Assembly: GCA_001786225.1 (NCBI GenBank)
Contig: MFVV01000033.1
Span: 3,336 to 36,016 of the forward strand
DNA: 32,681 bases
DNA from: Candidatus Nomurabacteria bacterium RIFCSPLOWO2_12_FULL_46_14
Lineage (GTDB): Bacteria > Patescibacteriota > Minisyncoccia > Phycocordibacterales > UBA9973
Direction of reading: 5' to 3'
The position numbers and the translations under genes are program-made. The notes beneath the pieces are model-generated. The model did no database searches, was not told the DNA's origin, and saw only the letters and a program-made list of their open reading frames with translations. How positions within the stretch are numbered: the first letter of the stretch is position 1; each line of letters starts with the position of its first letter. Below are positions 4,755-11,509 of this stretch, one piece after another.

Positions 4755-5219
4755 TTAGACGTATTTTATTTTAAAGCCCCTGCGCCCTTTTTCAATATGC
4801 GAAATTTCTATCTGGTGGTGAGACTTCGGCATAACCTTGGCGACCCTCTCCGGCCATTCCAGTAAAACAAGGTTCTTGGGATTTTTGATTATCTCTCGCC
4901 AACCCAGATAAAGAAGTTCTTGGCCGCTCTTTAGGCGATAGGCATCTAGATGAAAAAGGTTTTCTATCGGCTCTCCTTGGAGAGGGTAGCGCCGGATAAT
5001 AACAAAGGTGGGGCTTGGCATTTTTCTTTTTATCCGGAGCAGTTTACCGACAGCTTGAACGAAGGCGGTTTTGCCGGCCGAGAGCTCTCCAGACAAACCC
5101 ACAACTATTGCCCGCTTCCTTATTCGGGAAAACAAAACGCGCCTCAAAAAACCACGGGCTATTTCTTCCGTTTCCTTTTTACTCCTGGATATTTTTGACA
5201 CAGAAGCCATGTCTGACAT
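4755..5219 (-). CDS. tsaE: tRNA threonylcarbamoyladenosine (t6A) biosynthesis ATPase TsaE
   Basis: 154 aa. P-loop GLSGELSAGKTAFVQAVGK, then HLDAYRL and the LLEWPE motif typical of TsaE/YjeE. Confidence 0.85.
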   Translation of the reverse strand: MSDMASVSKISRSKKETEEIARGFLRRVLFSRIRKRAIVVGLSGELSAGKTAFVQAVGKLLRIKRKMPSPTFVIIRRYPLQGEPIENLFHLDAYRLKSGQELLYLGWREIIKNPKNLVLLEWPERVAKVMPKSHHQIEISHIEKGRRGFKIKYV

Positions 5220-5234
5220 ATTACCACAACATTA

Positions 5235-5243
5235 TGATATACT
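5235..5243 (+). promoter_or_regulatory. extended -10 box TGATATACT, 7 nt upstream of the ATG at 5251
   Basis: The sequence reads atTGATATACTgatggcaATGgct. This argues for 5251 as the pilB start rather than 5071, 5209 or 5245. Confidence 0.4.
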
Positions 5244-5250
5244 GATGGCA

Positions 5251-6948
5251 ATGGCTGATTTTGATGAAGAAAAACAGAATAAACAGCTGGAGGATTTGCG
5301 CCGGGAGGAGGAAGAGCAACTGATAGCGACTCTGGCCGAATCTAAATACGGCCTGCCCTACATCAACCTGACCCGTTTGGGAGTGGACAACGAGGCGCTC
5401 CGCGCCATTCCGGAAGCGGAAGCGCGAGAACTCAAGGTGGCCCCATTCAAGCTCTCCGGCAAAAATATTTTCATTGCCATCCGTTCGCCGGAAGAAAATC
5501 TTTTTGCCAAACTCAAGGAAGATATGGAGCGAAAAAATCTTGTCCCCTCTTTTTATATGGTTTCCCTGGCCTCTCTCAACAAAGTCTGGGAGAGATACCA
5601 GGAGCTTTCTCTGGCGGAGAGTTCTAAAGAAGGAGGCGTGGACATTTCTGGCGAGGTGCTCCGGCAGACCGCGGAAAGCATTCACCAAATAGAGGACATC
5701 GGCAAGCTTATCACCGAGACGGCGGAGGGTAGCAAAATTCACAAAGTCTCCCGGATGCTGGAGGTAATCCTCGCGGGCGCCATCGCCATTAAAGCCTCGG
5801 ACATTCATATTGAGCCGGAAAAAGACCGCGGCCGTATACGTCTGCGTCTGGACGGAGTCCTCCAGGATGTAGCCTTTTTTGACCTGGACTTGTACCGATT
5901 GCTCAACTCCCGCATCAAGCTCCTCTCCGGACTCAAGCTTACTTCCAAAATAACCCAAGACGGCAGATTCTCCATTATGGAAGCGGGCACGGAGCTCTCC
6001 ATCCGCACTTCTCTCATTCCCGGCACTTATGGCGAAGCTATTGTCCTCCGTATCTTAGACCCCAAGTCCATCCAGGTACCCCTGGAAGAACTTGGCATTG
6101 AGCAGTATCTCTTCTCCATTGTAGAGCAAGAAATAAGGAAGCCCAATGGCCTCATCCTGGTAACTGGGCCAACCGGCAGCGGCAAAACCACCACCCTTTA
6201 CGCCTTCCTGCGTAAAATATATTCTACGGAGATAAATATAATCACCATCGAGGACCCGGTAGAGTATCATCTGGAAGGCATAACCCAGACCCAGATCAGC
6301 CAGAAAAGAAATTACAATTTCCCCGAGGGCCTACGTTCCGCTCTGCGCCAGGACCCAGACGTAATCATGGTCGGCGAAATCCGCGACACGGATACCGCAA
6401 AAATCGCGGTGCAGTCGGCGCTCACCGGCCATATGGTCTTCTCTACTCTCCACACCAATAATGCCGCCGGGGTTATTCCTCGCCTGATTGACCTGGGAGT
6501 TAATCCCAAAATCATGGTGTCCGCTCTATCGCTTTCCATGGCCCAGCGCCTGGTGCGCAAGCTCTGCTCGGAGTGCAAGACGGAAAAGGTGCCTACCGAA
6601 GATGAGACGGCAACATTGAAACTCGTTATGCAAAGCATCGAAGAAGAGGGTAAGGACTTTTCAAAATACAAAATAGACAAGAATGCGCCGGTCAAACTTT
6701 ATGAAGCGCCTGGCTGTGAGAAATGCAACATGACCGGCTACAGGGGCAGAATCGGCATATTTGAAGCCATCCAGACCGACGCGGAAATAGAAAAAATAAT
6801 TCCGACTAATCCCAGCGAGCGGGAAATAAAAAAAGTGGCCAAACAACAGGGCATCCTCTCCATGCGTCAAGACGGCTTGATAAAAATACTCTCCGGCATC
6901 ACTTCCTTAGCCGAAGTAGCGAGTGTGGTGGATATGCGGGAGGAGTAA
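5251..6948 (+). CDS. pilB: type II secretion / type IV pilus assembly ATPase (GspE/PilB family)
   Basis: Walker A GPTGSGKTTT. Asp box IITIEDPVEY. Walker B DPDVIMVGEIRD. His box GHMVFSTLHTN. Tetracysteine CSEC...CEKC. The start is ambiguous (5209, 5245 or 5251); 5251 was chosen from the promoter spacing. Confidence 0.9.
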   Translation: MADFDEEKQNKQLEDLRREEEEQLIATLAESKYGLPYINLTRLGVDNEALRAIPEAEARELKVAPFKLSGKNIFIAIRSPEENLFAKLKEDMERKNLVPSFYMVSLASLNKVWERYQELSLAESSKEGGVDISGEVLRQTAESIHQIEDIGKLITETAEGSKIHKVSRMLEVILAGAIAIKASDIHIEPEKDRGRIRLRLDGVLQDVAFFDLDLYRLLNSRIKLLSGLKLTSKITQDGRFSIMEAGTELSIRTSLIPGTYGEAIVLRILDPKSIQVPLEELGIEQYLFSIVEQEIRKPNGLILVTGPTGSGKTTTLYAFLRKIYSTEINIITIEDPVEYHLEGITQTQISQKRNYNFPEGLRSALRQDPDVIMVGEIRDTDTAKIAVQSALTGHMVFSTLHTNNAAGVIPRLIDLGVNPKIMVSALSLSMAQRLVRKLCSECKTEKVPTEDETATLKLVMQSIEEEGKDFSKYKIDKNAPVKLYEAPGCEKCNMTGYRGRIGIFEAIQTDAEIEKIIPTNPSEREIKKVAKQQGILSMRQDGLIKILSGITSLAEVASVVDMREE

Positions 6949-6953
6949 GATGT

Positions 6954-7514
6954 ATGAAAACTAATTTAGAACCTGGCGGCGGACAGATTACCGGAGAAAG
7001 CGAATTAGAAACGGGCGGAATGAGGCTGGAAAAAGAAATCCCTATCGCGGAAGATATTGCCAGATTCAGAGCAGAGTTGGAAGAAAAAATTTTTGGAGAG
7101 GGTCTGCCGGCTGAAGAATGGGCAGTCGCTTACGAAGAAATATTTCAGAAATACAAATTGAAAGATGAAATTCTGGCTAGATTAACCTTGTTGATTTTTT
7201 ATGGACTTAGTAAGGAAGAATTGGCAGACCAGCAAATTAATAATATTTTAGATGATTTAGAAGATATAGAAAAAGCCCTAATTAACCCGGAGGATTTTTA
7301 TTATCGACAATTTCTCGGGGAAAATTCGTCCGGTTCTCAAGAAGCCGAATATCGAAGGAAAATTAAAATCAGTCTAATGGCCGCTTCGGACATTTTCTTT
7401 CTTTATCAAAGAACAGGAGACATGGAGCCTGCCCGAATGACCATCAACGTTTTGGAGAAATTCCCCCTCCAGAGCTGGCCAGCGATAGTCAGACTGATAA
7501 AGTCAAAGCATTAA
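6954..7514 (+). CDS. acidic cytoplasmic hypothetical protein, translationally linked to pilB
   Basis: 186 aa with an ATG 5 nt after the pilB stop. It is preceded by GGGAGGAG, one of the few clear Shine-Dalgarno sites in the window. No TM segment and no recognisable motif. Confidence 0.6.
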   Translation: MKTNLEPGGGQITGESELETGGMRLEKEIPIAEDIARFRAELEEKIFGEGLPAEEWAVAYEEIFQKYKLKDEILARLTLLIFYGLSKEELADQQINNILDDLEDIEKALINPEDFYYRQFLGENSSGSQEAEYRRKIKISLMAASDIFFLYQRTGDMEPARMTINVLEKFPLQSWPAIVRLIKSKH

Positions 7515-7616
7515 AAGCATGCGACTAGAAACAATACTGCAACTACACACTGTTCCTGCCATTTTTGAATGTCAAGTTTATTAACACCTCATGCTTGATT
7601 TTTTTACATGACAGAC

Positions 7617-7622
7617 TATACT
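7617..7622 (+). promoter_or_regulatory. promoter: -35 TTGATT (7595..7600), 16-nt spacer, -10 TATACT, 7 nt upstream of the ATG at 7630
   Basis: The sequence reads cTTGATTtttttacatgacagacTATACTtaaaggtATG. Confidence 0.5.
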
Positions 7623-7629
7623 TAAAGGT

Positions 7630-8316
7630 ATGAGTAACAAATATGCGAAATTTATCAAGGCTTTAAGAAACGAGCGGGGGTTTTCTCAGTCGTTTATGGC
7701 TGGAAAACTTGGGATTTCAAGACCATCGTATATAGGTGTGGAAAATGGGACTCGCGAAATAACTCTAGAGGAGGCAGAAAAATTGAAAGATTTGTTTGGG
7801 ATTTCTATTGAAGAATTTGCAAATGCAACTCTCCCCCAATACGAAAAATATAAGCAAATGATTCTCGCATATCTAAAGTCCTACATGACTTCTTCTGACG
7901 GCAAAATACCAAAGACAAAATTAGCGAAGCTTTTATACCTTGCTGATTTTTCGTGGTTTTACAAAAACTTAAACAGCATGAGTGGAATGCAATACTTGCG
8001 TCGCGCATACGGTCCCGTACCAGATCCATATTTTCGAGCGCTTGATGAACTTGAGGAAGAAGGGAAAATAAAAATTGACCCCAAGGGCGATGCTCTCCTG
8101 GTTTCACTTTCTGGTTCTTCACCAAATCAAAAACTTGATAAACTATCAGAAAAGGAGTTGGAATTAATAAAAAAAATTGGCGCAAAATGGAAAGAGAAAA
8201 ATACCCGAGACATTGTCGATTTTACTCACGAACAATTACCATACAAACTCTGCTCTCCAGATGAAGTAATACCGTACGAGTTGATAATCCAGCAAGATCC
8301 CGATTATGTCTACTAA
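7630..8316 (+). CDS. XRE-family HTH fused to a DUF4065 (Panacea/SocA-like) antitoxin domain
   Basis: The N-terminus LRNERGFSQSFMAGKLGISRPSYIGVENGTREITLEEAEKL is a classic HTH_3. The C-terminal part KTKLAKLLYLADFSWFY...MQYLRRAYGPVPDPYF matches the DUF4065 pattern (KLxKLLYxAD ... YGPV). Confidence 0.8.
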   Translation: MSNKYAKFIKALRNERGFSQSFMAGKLGISRPSYIGVENGTREITLEEAEKLKDLFGISIEEFANATLPQYEKYKQMILAYLKSYMTSSDGKIPKTKLAKLLYLADFSWFYKNLNSMSGMQYLRRAYGPVPDPYFRALDELEEEGKIKIDPKGDALLVSLSGSSPNQKLDKLSEKELELIKKIGAKWKEKNTRDIVDFTHEQLPYKLCSPDEVIPYELIIQQDPDYVY

Positions 8317-8701
8317 TTATGCTGTCATCGTAGAAAAATTTGCCGAGAGACACTTTATATCTAAATTTAAGAAAAAATATAAAGGGGCTTGGGATGTTAC
8401 CTTTAGGGCCATCCAAGAAGAATTAAAACGTATTGATACACTTATAGGCGAAACTAATATTGCCGAAACTATTACCGATCAAGAAAATATAAAAATATGT
8501 AAGACAGAGTTTCGTGTTCACGGTACTCAAGAGTCAAGACATACTTCAGGAAATCGTTGTATTGTGGCTGTGGACAAAGACACCTGCGTTGTAAAAGTTT
8601 TGCTTGTTTATGCAAAAACTGATTTAACTGGCAATAGGGAAACTGAGCAGTGGAAAAATTTAATAAAAGAAAATTATTTAGAATACTCAAAAATACTATA
8701 A
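8306..8701 (+). CDS. putative cognate toxin (RelE/HigB/Gp49-like by loose motif resemblance)
   Basis: 131 aa, with its ATG overlapping the antitoxin stop by 11 nt. KTEFRVHGTQESRHTSGNRCIVAVDKDTCVVKVLLVY resembles the (K)xxR..G.GKSGGxRxIY beta-strand core of HigB/Gp49-type mRNA interferases. The assignment is inference. Confidence 0.5.
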   Translation: MSTNYAVIVEKFAERHFISKFKKKYKGAWDVTFRAIQEELKRIDTLIGETNIAETITDQENIKICKTEFRVHGTQESRHTSGNRCIVAVDKDTCVVKVLLVYAKTDLTGNRETEQWKNLIKENYLEYSKIL

Positions 8702-8747
8702 TCTATGCCCGACGACAAAAATTTAACCAAAATTATGAGGCCTTGTC

Positions 8748-10178
8748 TCACAAGTGGTAAACGGCGGCGTAGCCTCGGTCTTTTGTACATTTAAAAGCTT
8801 TGGTTAAATTATCATCCAAGTCGTCTTGTATTTTACTCTCCTGCGGCATATCGTAATTGGAATACAAAAAGTAAACCTCTCTGCCGATATAATTCTTATC
8901 CAATTCTTCTCGGAGTGAGTCAAATTTCCACGGGTCCGGGTAGAGTTTATTCTCCTTACGGGTGTAATAATAACTGATGGGAGACTGGTTGGTAAGGATG
9001 AGAGAATTGTGTTCCTGATTGGCCAAGAATTTATTGGCCTCCCAAAAACATGTTGTTGCCTGGTCGTTGGCCTTGTTTTCGTAAATTGCTGCTACTCCCG
9101 CGACCGAAATAAGCAGAATGGCTCCGACAAATCCGAGAATCAAGTTCCCGAATCTTTTCAATTCGCTCAGCAAGAACCCGACAAGAAGGCAAACGGCCGG
9201 AACTATCGGCAGGATAAACCTATTCTCCTTGTGGGGCATAAAGCTCACCACTAAAAAAAAGAAAATCACCCAGGCCAGAAGGAGTATAATTTCTCGCCTT
9301 AACCATCTTTTCTTAAAAGACACATAAAAAAGCGCCAGAAGGAATAGGCTGGCGATGACTGAAAAATTAAGCCAGGCTGATTGCAAAAAGAAGGTCCACG
9401 GCTGAACACCACCCCAGTAGGCCGAGGCTTGAAAGCCGTGGACAAACGCGCCCAGAGGATTGTCGTAATATACAAAACCGTATAGGAGCCAAGGCAGAAG
9501 AGTGAGTAAAAATACTCCTGCACCATACCAGAGATATTTGTCTTTAAGAAATTTAAATGATTTTTCTTTGAGCAGGAGATAAAATAAAAAAACCGGCCCG
9601 AGCCAAAGCGTGGTATAGCGGGCAAGCAAAGCCAGAGCCAAGAATAAGCCGAACAACATTTTATATTTATTATCTCTTCGCTCAAAGCCCCGCCAAAAAC
9701 TGATAAAAGAAAGGAGAAGAAAAAAAACTACAAAAGTATCCGTCCAGATTTGTCCGCTGGCGAAAATATGCACCGGCAAGAGAGAAAATAAAAAAGCCGC
9801 GTAAAGGCCTGCCCTTCGGTTAAATAATTCTTTACCTAAGATATAAACCAAAAATGCGGAAAGGGCGGCAAAAAATGGAAGGAGAAATGGAATCAGAAAA
9901 TCAAGATTGAAAAAATAAAAAATAGAAAGGGTGTAGGGCAAAAGCGGCGCCCGGAAACCAATATTCGGCCAGGCATAGACCGGGTCGTCCGCGGGAATGA
10001 AGTCGTTCCAACCCGAATTTTGCAAAGAATAGTTTAAGGGCTGTTCGCTCAACTGCCGGCCTAAATTGAGGTAAACGGTCTCATCCCAGCCCCGGAGGGG
10101 AGAATAAAAAACAAACAAAATTCTGACGAGAAAAGTAAAAACAATAATTAAAATGAGGAGTTTTTTGTGAAGGTCCAT
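8748..10178 (-). CDS. GT-C fold glycosyltransferase (family 39 / PMT_2 / ArnT-like) polytopic membrane protein
   Basis: 476 aa with about 11 TM helices. The first-loop motif RGWDETVYLNLG is the DE motif of PMT/ArnT-type enzymes. It has a soluble C-terminal domain. Confidence 0.75.
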   Translation of the reverse strand: MDLHKKLLILIIVFTFLVRILFVFYSPLRGWDETVYLNLGRQLSEQPLNYSLQNSGWNDFIPADDPVYAWPNIGFRAPLLPYTLSIFYFFNLDFLIPFLLPFFAALSAFLVYILGKELFNRRAGLYAAFLFSLLPVHIFASGQIWTDTFVVFFLLLSFISFWRGFERRDNKYKMLFGLFLALALLARYTTLWLGPVFLFYLLLKEKSFKFLKDKYLWYGAGVFLLTLLPWLLYGFVYYDNPLGAFVHGFQASAYWGGVQPWTFFLQSAWLNFSVIASLFLLALFYVSFKKRWLRREIILLLAWVIFFFLVVSFMPHKENRFILPIVPAVCLLVGFLLSELKRFGNLILGFVGAILLISVAGVAAIYENKANDQATTCFWEANKFLANQEHNSLILTNQSPISYYYTRKENKLYPDPWKFDSLREELDKNYIGREVYFLYSNYDMPQESKIQDDLDDNLTKAFKCTKDRGYAAVYHL

Positions 10179-11224
10179 TTTTTATTGCCGATAAAATTTA
10201 TTATAAAAGCGACACCGATGGCCAAAGTCTGGGAAATCACGTAGTAGATGTCGAAAAACTCGGTAAAAACATACAGGCAAAAAATATTTACCCCAAAAGC
10301 CGCTAGAGCCACCGCGAAAAACCTCCCGTATTTTATCATTAATTTATCCTTTAGCATCTCCCTGAACGTCCACAGCTTATTGAGAATAAAATTAAAGGTT
10401 AGAGAAATAATAAAAGACAAACTGGCGGAGATCAGATAATATATGCCGGCATATTCGGTTAGGAGATATAAAAAGGCCAGATTAACAAAGGTTCCCAGGA
10501 TGCCGACTAGGGCAAATTGAAAAAATTCAGAAACTATGTTCCTCCGGTTTGGGAGATAAGCCCATAGATTCCGTAGGTAGAAAAAAATCTCTCCGAGCCC
10601 CGCCTTGCTCTCCCCGGCCCTCCGGTCGGTGAAGGTAATGGGTATCTCTGTTATTTTACCCGGTTTAGTTTTTACCAAAATCTCCAGCAAGATTTTAAAT
10701 CCTCGGGAATTTATTTCTATATTTTTTATCAAATCTCTCCGAAACATGAAAAAACCGGACATCGGGTCTTCCACTTCGGTGAAAATTCTCGCCAGGATGG
10801 TGGCGCCCCGAGACATAAGCCGCCGTTGCCAACTAGAGCCTTCTATCCGTCCTAGTGCCATGTAGCGGCTGCCGATGGCGATTTCCGCCCCGGATGTTAC
10901 GGCATTATACATTTCCGAAAGTCTCTCCGGCGGATGGCTCAAGTCCGCGTCCATTACTCCAATAATTTCTCCGCCGGCAATCCGAAGTCCGTCGTGTATC
11001 GCGGAAGAAAGACCCAGCTTGCCCGGCCGATGCATCACTGATAGACTGGAGTAAGTATTTTTCAGGTTTTCCATAATTTCCCCCGTGCCGTCGGGAGAAT
11101 TGTCGTCCACTACGACAATTTCGCCGTCTATATTGTGGACCTCAAATTCTTTTTTTACCCGCGATAGAAGATTAACGATATTTTCCCTTTCGTTGTAAGT
11201 CGGAATGATTAGGCTTAATTTCAT
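10148..11224 (-). CDS. GT2 polyprenol-phosphate (dolichol-P-mannose synthase-like) glycosyltransferase fused to a GtrA-like membrane domain
   Basis: Motifs IIPTYNERENI, VVDDNSPDGT and MDADLSHPP are typical Dpm1/Ppm1-type GT2. The C-terminal four-TM domain FALVGILGTFVNLAFLY...NFILNKLWTF is GtrA-like. It overlaps the downstream GT-C gene by 31 nt. Confidence 0.85.
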   Translation of the reverse strand: MKLSLIIPTYNERENIVNLLSRVKKEFEVHNIDGEIVVVDDNSPDGTGEIMENLKNTYSSLSVMHRPGKLGLSSAIHDGLRIAGGEIIGVMDADLSHPPERLSEMYNAVTSGAEIAIGSRYMALGRIEGSSWQRRLMSRGATILARIFTEVEDPMSGFFMFRRDLIKNIEINSRGFKILLEILVKTKPGKITEIPITFTDRRAGESKAGLGEIFFYLRNLWAYLPNRRNIVSEFFQFALVGILGTFVNLAFLYLLTEYAGIYYLISASLSFIISLTFNFILNKLWTFREMLKDKLMIKYGRFFAVALAAFGVNIFCLYVFTEFFDIYYVISQTLAIGVAFIINFIGNKKWTFTKNSSF

Positions 11225-11240
11225 AGAAACATTTTAAACG

Positions 11241-11398
11241 AAAAAACACTAATCTCCAAACAATCCTTTTAGGGCTATGCCCCGAAAGTAACAAGCCCGT
11301 AGAGGATAGCACCAGCGACCCAGTAAAGAGTGCCAAAACGTCCTCGAGAAACTTGTATAACCTGTGGCTGATTGCTTAGAGATTAGTGCCTTCTCTCT
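11241..11398 (-). ncRNA. candidate structured RNA of unknown class (about 158 nt)
   Basis: A 19-bp closing helix pairs 11247..11265 with 11370..11388. On the minus strand the helix is complete, with two G.U wobbles; on the plus strand those positions would be A.C mismatches. Internal hairpins are GAGGA/UCCUC (11302..11306 with 11341..11345, extended by GCAC/GUGC) and GGGC/GCCC. The minus strand has TATAAT at 11411..11406 and a U6 tract (11246..11241) directly after the closing helix. No convincing ORF. Confidence 0.45.
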
Positions 11399-11432
11399 TA
11401 TATCAATTATACTATTACCCCTACCCGACAAA

Positions 11433-11441
11433 TGTTATAAT
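11433..11441 (+). promoter_or_regulatory. extended -10 box TGTTATAAT upstream of ruvB (about 62-nt leader with a small hairpin at 11474..11490)
   Basis: Sequence match only. This is the one promoter-like box here that is not immediately adjacent to its ATG. Confidence 0.35.
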
Positions 11442-11509
11442 GTTGAGAACTAAGGGGATAGTGTGTTTATAAAACTCTCCTTTGAGGAGTATAGCACAAT
11501 AATAAATTA

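What the first reader, a model, noticed from the sequence alone, without database searches (positions are those of the whole stretch)
7595..8701. HTH-Panacea (DUF4065) antitoxin with an overlapping unclassified 131-aa toxin candidate on an AT-rich islet
The two genes have their own promoter and overlap by 11 nt (ATG inside the antitoxin's last codons). They are visibly AT-richer than the flanking pilB and glycosyltransferase genes. The first protein fuses an XRE HTH to a DUF4065 domain, the hyperpromiscuous Panacea antitoxin domain known to pair with many unrelated toxins. The second protein has only a loose HigB/Gp49-like strand motif (SGNRCIVAV) and may represent an undescribed PanT toxin family, or a small defence module, in a reduced genome.
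Basis: partly seen in the sequence, partly recalled or inferred. Interest (0 to 1): 0.6.

Follow-up and report, generated by a model that had tools for sequence, protein, structure and literature searches.

The report
Panacea antitoxin with RelE-like toxin
This is a self-contained 1.1-kb toxin-antitoxin cassette that moves between tiny Patescibacteria genomes; its "unclassified" 131-aa partner is a divergent RelE/HigB-2-type toxin that probably cuts mRNA on the ribosome, a pairing already catalogued by prediction but never tested.

Summary
Two overlapping + strand genes lie at 7630-8316 (228 aa) and 8306-8701 (131 aa), overlapping by 11 nt. The first is HTH_3 plus SocA_Panacea, both above Pfam cut-offs. 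The pair is AT-rich (GC 0.363 against 0.462 for the genome).

The 131-aa protein matches no curated model but is not a new fold. Its AlphaFold model (pLDDT 91) retrieves almost only RelE-superfamily mRNases. A family profile touches V. cholerae HigB-2. Near-invariant R84, Y102 and K104 (plus R70 or K66) align with HigB-2's validated catalytic R64, Y82, K84 and R51.

In 81 of 82 related loci a full-length HTH-Panacea gene sits directly upstream. A conserved inverted repeat and a -35/-10 pair lie 6-9 nt before the ATG, which implies a leaderless transcript. Shared DNA stops exactly at the cassette edges.

The cassette occurs in about 3% of sampled Patescibacteria species. Its similarity runs opposite to RuvB similarity, which indicates horizontal transfer. 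Here it lies in a 4.5-kb insertion between pilB and ruvB.

Kurata et al. 2022 already list this architecture, including Saccharibacteria members, as untested PanT cluster T14. Verdict: an ordinary type II TA module, a new member of a known kind, of moderate-low interest.

The parts
7570..7586 (.). Putative operator: inverted repeat TGTCA-N7-TAACA (family consensus TGTCA-N6-8-TGACA) about 10 nt upstream of the -35
   Evidence: The TGTC...(G/A)ACA repeat is present in 43/78 distinct homologous upstream regions, against 0.9 in shuffles and 3/172 in control upstreams. DNA similarity to other loci begins exactly here. Binding by the HTH is inferred.
7595..7622 (+). Promoter: -35 TTGATT (7595-7600), 16-nt spacer holding TTACA/TGACA half-site-like words (7604-7613), -10 TATACT (7617-7622). 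Only 7 nt separate it from the ATG, implying a leaderless or near-leaderless mRNA.
   Evidence: Searches give the hexamers. The arrangement TTGAC-17-TAnnnT-(5-10)-ATG is conserved in 54/78 loci, against 0.5 in shuffles. TTGAC-N4-6-(T/G)ACA occurs in 50/78 loci and 0/172 controls. The transcription start was not measured.
7630..8316 (+). panA antitoxin, 228 aa: XRE-type HTH (res 9-63; 7654-7818), Panacea/DUF4065 core (res 98-205; 7921-8244), conserved low-confidence C-terminal tail (res 206-228; 8245-8313)
   Evidence: Pfam. AF2 model pLDDT 86.5. The HTH superposes on R-M controller proteins and phage repressors at rmsd about 1.5 A. The tail has mean column identity 0.67, with Y216, L218, I219, Q221 and P224 (near-)invariant.
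8306..8701 (+). panT toxin, 131 aa, RelE/HigB-2-like fold. Putative catalytic codons: K66 (8501-8503), R70 (8513-8515), R84 (8555-8557), Y102 (8609-8611), K104 (8615-8617). Family-specific invariant E112 (8639-8641).
   Evidence: AF2 pLDDT 91, pTM 0.86. Foldseek PDB. hmmsearch against HigB-2, E=0.014. hhalign 77%, E=2e-5. Conservation. HigB-2 active site from PMC5416850.
8306..8316 (+). 11-nt gene overlap (translational coupling); no Shine-Dalgarno-like sequence before the toxin ATG
   Evidence: The same -11 junction occurs in 49 of 81 loci, -14 in 16, -4 in 1, and +2 to +8 in 15.
6949..11509 (.). Context: 4.5-kb accessory insertion between pilB and ruvB, made of a 186-aa orphan ORF, the TA cassette, a PMT-type GT-C and a GT2-GtrA glycosyltransferase
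   Evidence: In five same-genus genomes pilB is followed directly by ruvB. The 186-aa ORF is absent from 25 same-genus species, and the PMT gene is present in only one. Insert GC is 0.407 against 0.462 for the genome.

Best explanation
This is a minimal, horizontally mobile type II toxin-antitoxin cassette of the PanAT kind. One leaderless bicistronic transcript encodes an HTH-Panacea antitoxin and, by translational coupling, a 131-aa toxin with a RelE/HigB-2 fold. Shown here: the domain content, the fold, alignment of the conserved residues to a validated active site, strict gene linkage, the conserved promoter and inverted repeat, and patchy, transfer-like distribution. Inferred: the free toxin enters the ribosomal A site and cleaves mRNA, using R84, Y102 and K104 with R70 or K66. 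The antitoxin binds and neutralises it, most likely with the conserved C-terminal tail and/or the Panacea core. Its dimeric HTH represses the operon at the TGTCA-N7-TGACA operator next to and inside the promoter. Loss or inactivation of the antitoxin frees the toxin and arrests translation.
For: Antitoxin domains are above Pfam cut-offs. The toxin model has pLDDT 91. About 30 of the top 35 Foldseek PDB hits are RelE-superfamily mRNases: aRelE E=6e-4 with TM 0.74, plus HigB2, YoeB, RelE, YafQ, HigB, PfiT and the Cami1 RelE domain. The profile of 94 diverse members hits VcHigB-2 as the only meaningful PDB sequence match, at E=0.014. hhalign against a bona fide PF06296 protein gives 77% probability, E=2e-5. 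Near-invariant R84, Y102 and K104 align with VcHigB2 R64, Y82 and K84, and R70 aligns with R51. Alanine mutants of those HigB2 residues lose 170- to 3000-fold activity (PMC5416850). In 81 of 82 loci a full-length HTH-Panacea homologue lies directly upstream, and the one exception sits at a contig edge. There is no conserved third gene among 138 neighbours. Promoter and operator are conserved. Shared DNA is bounded at about 7560-7570 and about 8700. The cassette is present in 12 of 401 sampled species of the phylum, always single-copy. Cassette identity runs opposite to RuvB identity: same-genus G003 has RuvB 82% and cassette 57-59%, while G440 has RuvB 60% and cassette 82-87%. Toxin-only decay supports toxicity. 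L058 and L080 carry single in-frame TAA codons in the toxin beside intact antitoxins, and no locus has a broken antitoxin next to an intact toxin. Two of the 12 phylum hits have truncated toxin matches, but their antitoxins were not checked.
Against: There is no experimental evidence for toxicity, neutralisation, RNA cleavage or DNA binding in any member. No curated RelE/ParE-type model detects the protein, and PF06296 finds nothing in the genome even at E<=10. Foldseek E-values are weak (best 6e-4), and the hhalign probability is moderate, with a single-sequence template. R70 is conserved only in the close subfamily; in the wide family only K66 is. The invariant E112-T113, an extra helix (43-50) and unusually high sequence conservation (mean column identity 70% among close members) are not features of classical RelE toxins and might signal a different substrate. 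No complex model could be made, so the neutralising element is a guess. For multidomain PanAs, NetFlax (PMC10440598) argues that Panacea may be a sensor rather than the neutraliser.
Confidence: 0.8

Rival explanations
1. The fold is RelE-like but the activity differs. The toxin would be a ribosome-independent RNase (BrnT-like), or would target tRNA, rRNA or another substrate, with the invariant E112-T113 motif taking part in catalysis.
For: E112 is the only fully invariant residue across 94 diverse members, and T113 is near-invariant. These residues have no counterpart in the HigB-2 stretch aligned by hmmsearch or hhalign. The protein also has an extra helix and a long C-terminal helix and is unusually strongly conserved.
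Against: The residues that do align are exactly the HigB-2/RelE catalytic set. The top structural matches are ribosome-dependent mRNases.
Confidence: 0.1
2. The toxin is a ParE-like gyrase poison. ParE has the same superfamily fold but no nuclease activity.
For: ParE shares the fold, and ParE-like domains are among known PanTs (PMC8832971).
Against: ParE-type structures rank far down the Foldseek list (5ceg at rank 45, probability 0.20). Conservation of the Arg/Tyr/Lys set typical of RelE and HigB-2 is not expected in ParE.
Confidence: 0.04
3. The 131-aa protein is not a toxin. It would be a non-toxic partner, such as a co-regulator or a client of a SocA-like proteolytic adaptor.
For: Toxicity is untested. 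The founding Panacea protein SocA is a ClpXP adaptor rather than a classical antitoxin (my own knowledge of the Caulobacter SocAB system, not checked here).
Against: The protein has a RelE fold with a conserved catalytic set. Toxin-only nonsense alleles occur beside intact antitoxins. The distribution is patchy and HGT-driven, as is typical of TA modules.
Confidence: 0.06
4. This rival concerns the biological role, not the chemistry. The cassette would be an abortive-infection or phage-defence switch in which the Panacea domain senses a phage cue, rather than a mere addiction or selfish module.
For: Some loci lie next to R-M genes: EcoRI methylase with GmrSD in L005, Mrr and NYN in L006, and type I and MmeI-type enzymes among neighbours. 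NetFlax proposes a sensor role for Panacea.
Against: R-M neighbours are a minority, under about 10% of 138, and no baseline for these genomes was computed. Many neighbours are housekeeping genes such as BipA and L25. In the window the neighbours are glycosyltransferases. There is no match in 50,697 phage records and no PADLOC system hit.
Confidence: 0.2

Closest known systems
PanAT systems, specifically predicted PanT cluster pT15/T14 of Kurata et al. 2022 (PNAS 119:e2102212119; PMC8832971, Dataset S1)
   Same: Both have a Panacea-domain antitoxin with an N-terminal HTH, antitoxin-then-toxin order, a -11 nt junction and CPR hosts (Ca. Saccharimonas aalborgensis, TM7 HOT_356). The T14 toxin has HHpred top hit HigB-2 (99.7%), and all members are untested. 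The +2 junction variant listed for Pedobacter also occurs in my survey.
   Different: Sequence-level identity with T14 could not be verified, because the RefSeq sequences were not retrievable. T14 also holds Bacteroidetes and methanogen members with no HTH. Every oddly labelled bin I checked that carries this family turned out to be CPR. The 2-kb 'Bacteroidia' contig L057 could not be confirmed that way; its closest homologues are CPR.
Vibrio cholerae HigB-2 / Pfam PF06296 (RelE superfamily ribosome-dependent mRNase; Hadzi et al. 2017, PMC5416850)
   Same: The fold matches (Foldseek ranks 2-3). It is the only PDB sequence hit of the family profile. The catalytic Arg, Arg, Tyr and Lys residues align with conserved family residues. 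Both have a C-terminal helix after the sheet.
   Different: The PF06296 HMM does not detect the protein. The protein is 131 aa against 110 aa, with an extra helix at 43-50. It has an invariant E112-T113 motif. The gene order is reversed: HigB-2 precedes its antitoxin, as in L102. The antitoxin is unrelated (HTH-Panacea against HigA2/MqsA-type).
Archaeal and bacterial RelE, and YoeB (1wmi, 4fxh, 7v6w)
   Same: These give the best structural superpositions, with target TM-scores of 0.70-0.74. Gene order is antitoxin first and the genes overlap.
   Different: There is no detectable sequence similarity. Their antitoxins (RelB, YefM) are small proteins with an RHH or Phd fold, not HTH-Panacea.
SocAB of Caulobacter (founding SocA/Panacea protein)
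   Same: They share the Panacea domain (PF13274).
   Different: From my own knowledge, not checked here: SocB is a DnaN-binding toxin unrelated to RelE, and SocA works as a proteolytic adaptor and has no HTH.

Membership tests
PanAT (Panacea-antitoxin TA systems) | Antitoxin carries the Panacea/DUF4065 domain (PF13274) above the curated cut-off | tested here: met
   49.4 bits against a cut-off of 25.7, res 98-205. It is the only Panacea gene in the genome.
PanAT (Panacea-antitoxin TA systems) | Conserved two-gene architecture with a small partner gene | tested here: met
   81 of 82 loci, with junctions from -14 to +8 nt. No conserved third gene.
PanAT (Panacea-antitoxin TA systems) | Partner is toxic and is neutralised by direct complex formation with PanA | not testable with these tools
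   This needs expression and pull-down experiments. The only indirect support is toxin-only nonsense alleles beside intact antitoxins.
Kurata 2022 PanT cluster T14 | Sequence clusters with WP_015641600.1, WP_129619247.1 and the other listed members | not tested
   Those sequences were not retrievable. The descriptive signature is identical: CPR host, HTH PanA, A|T order, -11 junction and a HigB-2 HHpred hit.
RelE/ParE superfamily | Fold of an N-terminal strand, a helical hairpin and a 4-stranded antiparallel sheet | tested here: met
   The AF2 model has E6-9, H11-25, H27-40, E53-59, E62-69, E83-90 and E95-103. Foldseek probability is 0.97-1.00 for the top 7 RelE-superfamily hits (aRelE, HigB2, T. 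thermophilus RelE, YoeB, HP0892), with target TM up to 0.74.
RelE/ParE superfamily | Detected by a curated sequence model (PF06296 RelE, PF05016 ParE_toxin, PF05973 Gp49, YoeB, YafQ, or NCBIfam RelE/ParE models) | tested here: not met
   No Pfam or NCBIfam hit. One of 94 members touches PF06296 at E=0.014. PF06296 finds nothing in the genome at E<=10.
RelE/ParE superfamily | Profile-level homology to a bona fide member | tested here: inconclusive
   hmmsearch against HigB-2 gives E=0.014. hhalign against a PF06296 protein gives 77% probability, E=2e-5, over 56 columns. This is suggestive but below the usual 90-95% confidence.
RelE/HigB-2-type mRNases | Catalytic Arg/Arg/Tyr/Lys set on the sheet surface (VcHigB2 R51, R64, Y82, K84) | tested here: met
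   R70, R84, Y102 and K104 align to them. R84, Y102 and K104 are at least 90% conserved in 94 diverse members. R70 is conserved only in the close subfamily, while K66 is conserved throughout. Spatial clustering could not be measured because model coordinates are not exposed.
RelE/HigB-2-type mRNases | Ribosome-dependent cleavage of A-site mRNA | not testable with these tools
   A biochemical assay is required.
Type II TA modules in general | Autoregulated bicistronic operon with a DNA-binding antitoxin and an operator | tested here: inconclusive
   The antitoxin has an XRE HTH. The inverted repeat and promoter are conserved far above controls.
Type II TA modules in general | Patchy, horizontally transferred distribution | tested here: met
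   Present in 3 of 41 relatives and 12 of 401 species of the phylum. Cassette identity is anticorrelated with RuvB identity. Same-genus genomes show an empty site.

The most novel reading that the evidence does not exclude
The cassette is not an ordinary addiction module. It would be a Patescibacteria-specific branch of the RelE superfamily, kept unusually constant (55-83% identity across distant classes). Its invariant Glu112-Thr113 motif and extra helices would reflect a changed substrate or an adaptation to the atypical ribosomes of these bacteria. Its Panacea domain would sense a phage- or host-derived cue, making it an abortive-infection or epibiont-lifestyle switch.
Probability: 0.12. 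Interest if true: 0.6.

Novelty: new member of a known kind. Interest (0 to 1): 0.3.

Why it matters
The practical value is in annotation. At least 900 protein clusters (90% identity) in public metagenomes are labelled 'hypothetical' and match no Pfam, NCBIfam, PHROG or PADLOC model. They can now be read as RelE/HigB-2-like PanT toxins with a defined candidate active site. The cassette is also a clean natural example of a minimal mobile unit: operator, leaderless promoter and two coupled genes in 1.14 kb, with sharp borders and no recombinase. It spreads among genomes of 0.5-1.4 Mb that otherwise shed non-essential DNA. If tested, it would give the first experimental data for PanT cluster T14. 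It would also be a tractable case for asking whether an HTH-Panacea antitoxin neutralises through Panacea itself or through its C-terminal tail. It does not open a new kind of biology.

Tried and rejected
1. The toxin was scanned against Pfam, NCBIfam, PADLOC and PHROGs, with nothing usable. A weak PADLOC RtcR hit (E=0.0023) was judged noise.
2. The BFVD viral fold library gave no match with E<=0.001. tblastn against 50,697 phage records gave no match.
3. hmmsearch with the narrow profile A1 against PDB gave zero hits at E<=10. Only the broader A2 profile reached HigB-2.
4. Searching the own genome with the PF06296 HMM gave no hit.
5. I tried to prove sequence identity with Kurata's T14. A search seeded with the 'Bacteroidia' L057 toxin returned only Patescibacteria or unnamed hits. 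A cluster-member look-up of ten NCBI-sourced proteins gave no RefSeq accessions. The NetFlax supplements held nothing specific.
6. I considered cross-domain or cross-phylum spread suggested by record titles (Nanoarchaeota, Pacearchaeota, Gammaproteobacteria, Bacteroidia) and rejected it. Those bins are 0.7-1.3 Mb with CPR-like RuvB. The 'Pacearchaeota' contig carries bacterial RF-1/PCRF, EF-Ts and bL31. The 2-kb 'Bacteroidia' contig is probably mis-binned.
7. I looked for flanking direct or inverted repeats, an intrinsic terminator, and Rfam RNAs at the cassette edges. There were none.
8. The fold search of the antitoxin matched only its HTH; no solved Panacea-like structure was found.
11. My first adjacency script reported 14 loci without an upstream ORF. 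This was an artefact of taking the longest-ORF start, and it was corrected by anchoring on the profile-aligned start.
Full report
OBSERVATION

The window holds two + strand ORFs, 7630..8316 (228 aa) and 8306..8701 (131 aa). The second ATG lies inside the last codons of the first gene, giving an 11-nt overlap. The first protein matches HTH_3 (E=6.6e-13, res 9-63) and SocA_Panacea/DUF4065 (E=1e-12, res 98-205), both above Pfam's gathering scores. The second protein matches nothing in Pfam, NCBIfam, PADLOC or PHROGs.

The pair is AT-rich on a genome scale. Its GC is 0.363 against 0.462 for the 526-kb genome, the 3.3rd percentile of equal-sized windows. Toxin GC3 is 0.25, below the 1st percentile of the genome's ORFs of 150 aa or more.

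THE 131-AA PROTEIN

It belongs to a large, discrete family that is annotated only as 'hypothetical'.
- At least 530 clusters at 90% identity were found from the window protein, and at least 900 from a second seed.
- An exhaustive profile search of 1.84 billion representatives found 214 clusters at 50% identity.
- Named members are Patescibacteria.
- Close members are strikingly similar, with a mean column identity of 70%.
- Across 94 diverse members the near-invariant positions are K23, K66, F69, S77, G82, R84, L99, Y102, K104, E112 (fully invariant) and T113.

An AlphaFold2 model built on the family alignment is confident (pLDDT 91, pTM 0.86). It has a beta-alpha-alpha-(alpha)-beta4-alpha topology. 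Foldseek against the PDB returns an almost pure list of RelE-superfamily mRNA interferases: archaeal RelE (E=6e-4, target TM 0.74), HigB-2, YoeB, HP0892, RelE, YafQ, HigB, PfiT and the RelE domain of Cami1. ParE-type entries rank far down the list.

At the sequence level:
- The narrow profile finds nothing in the PDB.
- The 94-member profile has V. cholerae HigB-2 as its only meaningful hit (E=0.014), aligning SGNRcI...LLvYsK with GGSRIIYYF...LLTIYGK.
- One family member touches PF06296.
- hhalign of the profile against a bona fide PF06296 protein from a Vibrio tapetis plasmid gives 77% probability, E=2e-5, over 56 columns.

Hadzi et al. 2017 (PMC5416850) showed by alanine substitution that R51, R64, Y82 and K84 form the VcHigB2 active site. 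In both alignments these fall on R70, R84, Y102 and K104 of the window protein, and K66 falls on K49. R84, Y102 and K104 are conserved throughout the family. R70 is conserved only in the close subfamily.

The protein fails every curated sequence model. I file it as a divergent member of the superfamily by fold and active site, not as a member of PF06296.

THE ANTITOXIN AND THE REGULATORY REGION

The antitoxin model (pLDDT 86.5) has three parts.
- A five-helix XRE domain.
- A Panacea core.
- A conserved C-terminal tail (res 206-228) that is predicted with low confidence.

Its HTH superposes on R-M controller proteins, phage repressors, SinR, CapH and HipB at about 1.5 A. No solved structure matches the Panacea part.

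I right-aligned 78 distinct homologous upstream regions on the start codon. They show a conserved layout: aTGTCAa-N5-6-T(G/A)ACA, then cTTGACttttTTACA, then TATACT, then 6-9 nt, then ATG.

| Element | Homologous regions | Shuffles | Control upstreams |
|---|---|---|---|
| -35/-10/ATG arrangement | 54/78 | 0.5 | 5/172 |
| Inverted repeat | 43/78 | 0.9 | 3/172 |

In the window the elements are:
- repeat: TGTCA 7570-7574 and TAACA 7582-7586
- -35: TTGATT 7595-7600
- -10: TATACT 7617-7622
- start codon: ATG 7630

The 7-nt gap between the -10 and the ATG implies a leaderless or near-leaderless transcript. No Shine-Dalgarno-like sequence precedes the toxin ATG, which is consistent with translational coupling.

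LINKAGE AND THE MOBILE UNIT

Of 82 loci holding a toxin homologue (GTDB species genomes plus two others), 81 have a full-length HTH-Panacea homologue immediately upstream on the same strand. The exception has only 105 bp of contig upstream. Junctions are -11 nt in 49 loci, -14 in 16, -4 in 1, and +2 to +8 in 15.

Among 138 immediate neighbours no family recurs more than 6 times. R-M components appear in a minority, alongside housekeeping genes. The system has two genes, not three.

Nucleotide similarity between the window and all other loci starts at 7560-7570 and ends at about 8700. It never extends into the flanks. No flanking repeats, terminator or Rfam element were found. The transferable unit is thus a bare cassette of about 1.14 kb.

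DISTRIBUTION AND HISTORY

The genome is a 0.53-Mb assembly, 88.6% complete, with a single Panacea gene. The toxin family is found in 3 of 41 related genomes. It is also found in 12 of 401 evenly drawn species of the phylum, always single-copy.

In five same-genus genomes pilB is followed directly by ruvB. In the window a 4.5-kb block (6949-11509) is inserted there. It holds a 186-aa orphan ORF, the cassette and a PMT-type plus GT2-GtrA glycosyltransferase pair. The one same-genus species with the cassette carries it at another locus.

| Genome | RuvB identity | Cassette identity (antitoxin/toxin) |
|---|---|---|
| G003 (same genus) | 82% | 57-59% |
| G440 (L061) | 60% | 87%/82% |
| G442 (L009) | 57% | 82%/78% |

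The cassette's similarity runs opposite to that of a housekeeping gene, which indicates horizontal transfer.

Record titles suggesting archaeal, gammaproteobacterial or Bacteroidia hosts are labelling or binning artefacts.

TOXIN DECAY

Two loci (L058, L080) carry a single in-frame TAA in an otherwise well-conserved toxin, next to an intact antitoxin. Two of the 12 phylum hits have truncated toxin matches, though their antitoxins were not checked. No locus shows a broken antitoxin beside an intact toxin. This asymmetry is what a real toxin-antitoxin pair predicts, although the numbers are small.

MECHANISM (steps marked shown or inferred)

1. One promoter drives both genes, and the cassette is inherited as a unit. 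Conservation is shown; transcription is inferred.
2. The antitoxin dimer binds the TGTCA-N7-TGACA repeat and related half-sites in the promoter and represses it. This is inferred from the HTH type and the conserved repeat.
3. The antitoxin binds the toxin. I favour the conserved, apparently disordered C-terminal tail. This is by analogy with RelB and HigA2 segments that fold onto RelE-type toxins, with the Panacea core as platform or sensor as NetFlax proposes (PMC10440598). It is inferred; no complex model was possible.
4. The free toxin cleaves mRNA in the ribosomal A site using R84, Y102 and K104 with R70 or K66. This is inferred from the fold and the active-site alignment.

I put 0.8 on the TA-with-RelE-fold reading as a whole, and about 0.65-0.7 on ribosome-dependent mRNA cleavage specifically.

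COMPARISON WITH WHAT IS KNOWN, AND NOVELTY

Kurata et al. 2022 (PMC8832971) describe PanAT systems. They report 343 PanAs with an N-terminal HTH and list ParE-like domains among PanTs.

Their Dataset S1 holds cluster pT15/T14.
- Its HHpred top hit is HigB-2 (99.73%), and every member is marked 'notest'.
- Members include Ca. Saccharimonas aalborgensis and a TM7 strain, each with an HTH PanA, A|T order and a -11 junction.
- Pedobacter members have a +2 junction.

These are the same signatures as in my survey. I could not retrieve those sequences to prove identity, but the match of host group, architecture, junction and fold makes it very likely.

Two earlier follow-up notes of this scan on homologous cassettes in other genomes reach the same reading. 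I had already found T14 and the operator and leaderless layout before reading those notes.

The finding is therefore a new member of a known kind that has been computationally catalogued and is experimentally untouched.
- a candidate active site
- the operator and leaderless promoter consensus
- the exact cassette borders
- the empty-site comparison
- prevalence and transfer figures
- toxin-only decay

LIMITS

Nothing here is experimental. The structural E-values are weak individually and persuasive only through their consistency. The hhalign template was a single sequence. Conservation of upstream motifs among homologous regions partly reflects shared descent, although the accompanying proteins are only 54-87% identical. 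The defence-island question lacks a genomic baseline.

Noticed in passing
window 6949-11509: The pilB-ruvB junction is an insertion hot spot. Five same-genus genomes have pilB directly followed by ruvB. The window has 4.5 kb inserted there: a 186-aa orphan ORF, the TA cassette, and a PMT-type GT-C plus GT2-GtrA pair on the minus strand. Another genus member (L094) has two different genes at the same site.
   Followed up: partly
window 6954-7514: A 186-aa ORF immediately after pilB, 5 nt downstream of its stop. It has no family hit and is absent from 25 other species of the genus. Its GC is 0.40. Its function is unknown, and it may belong to the pilus operon or to the insertion.
   Followed up: partly
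L058 3998-4396; L080 3995-4390: Toxin genes with one in-frame TAA each (codon 49 and codon 75 respectively) but otherwise conserved sequence, next to intact antitoxin genes. They appear to be recently inactivated toxins.
   Followed up: yes
L038 2372-3097: A second HTH-Panacea-like gene lies about 90 nt downstream of the toxin in this locus, with a different upstream region. It may be a tandem second PanA module or an orphan antitoxin.
   Followed up: no
L008, L045, L055, L057, L060, L067, L086 (record titles): Bins labelled Nanoarchaeota, Pacearchaeota, Gammaproteobacteria or Bacteroidia carry the cassette. Five of the seven bins are 0.7-1.3 Mb genomes with CPR-like RuvB. The 'Pacearchaeota' contig encodes bacterial RF-1, EF-Ts and bL31. 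These are taxonomic labels or binning errors, not cross-domain transfer.
   Followed up: yes
window 5071-6948: The longest pilB ORF starts at TTG 5071 (625 aa). Gene callers on identical contigs and all genus orthologues support a 565-aa product starting at 5251.
   Followed up: partly
L005 759-2892; L006 1084-2836: In two long contigs the cassette sits beside restriction or defence-type genes: EcoRI-like methylase plus GmrSD/HNH in one, and Mrr and NYN nucleases in the other. Across 138 neighbours R-M genes recur but are a minority.
   Followed up: partly
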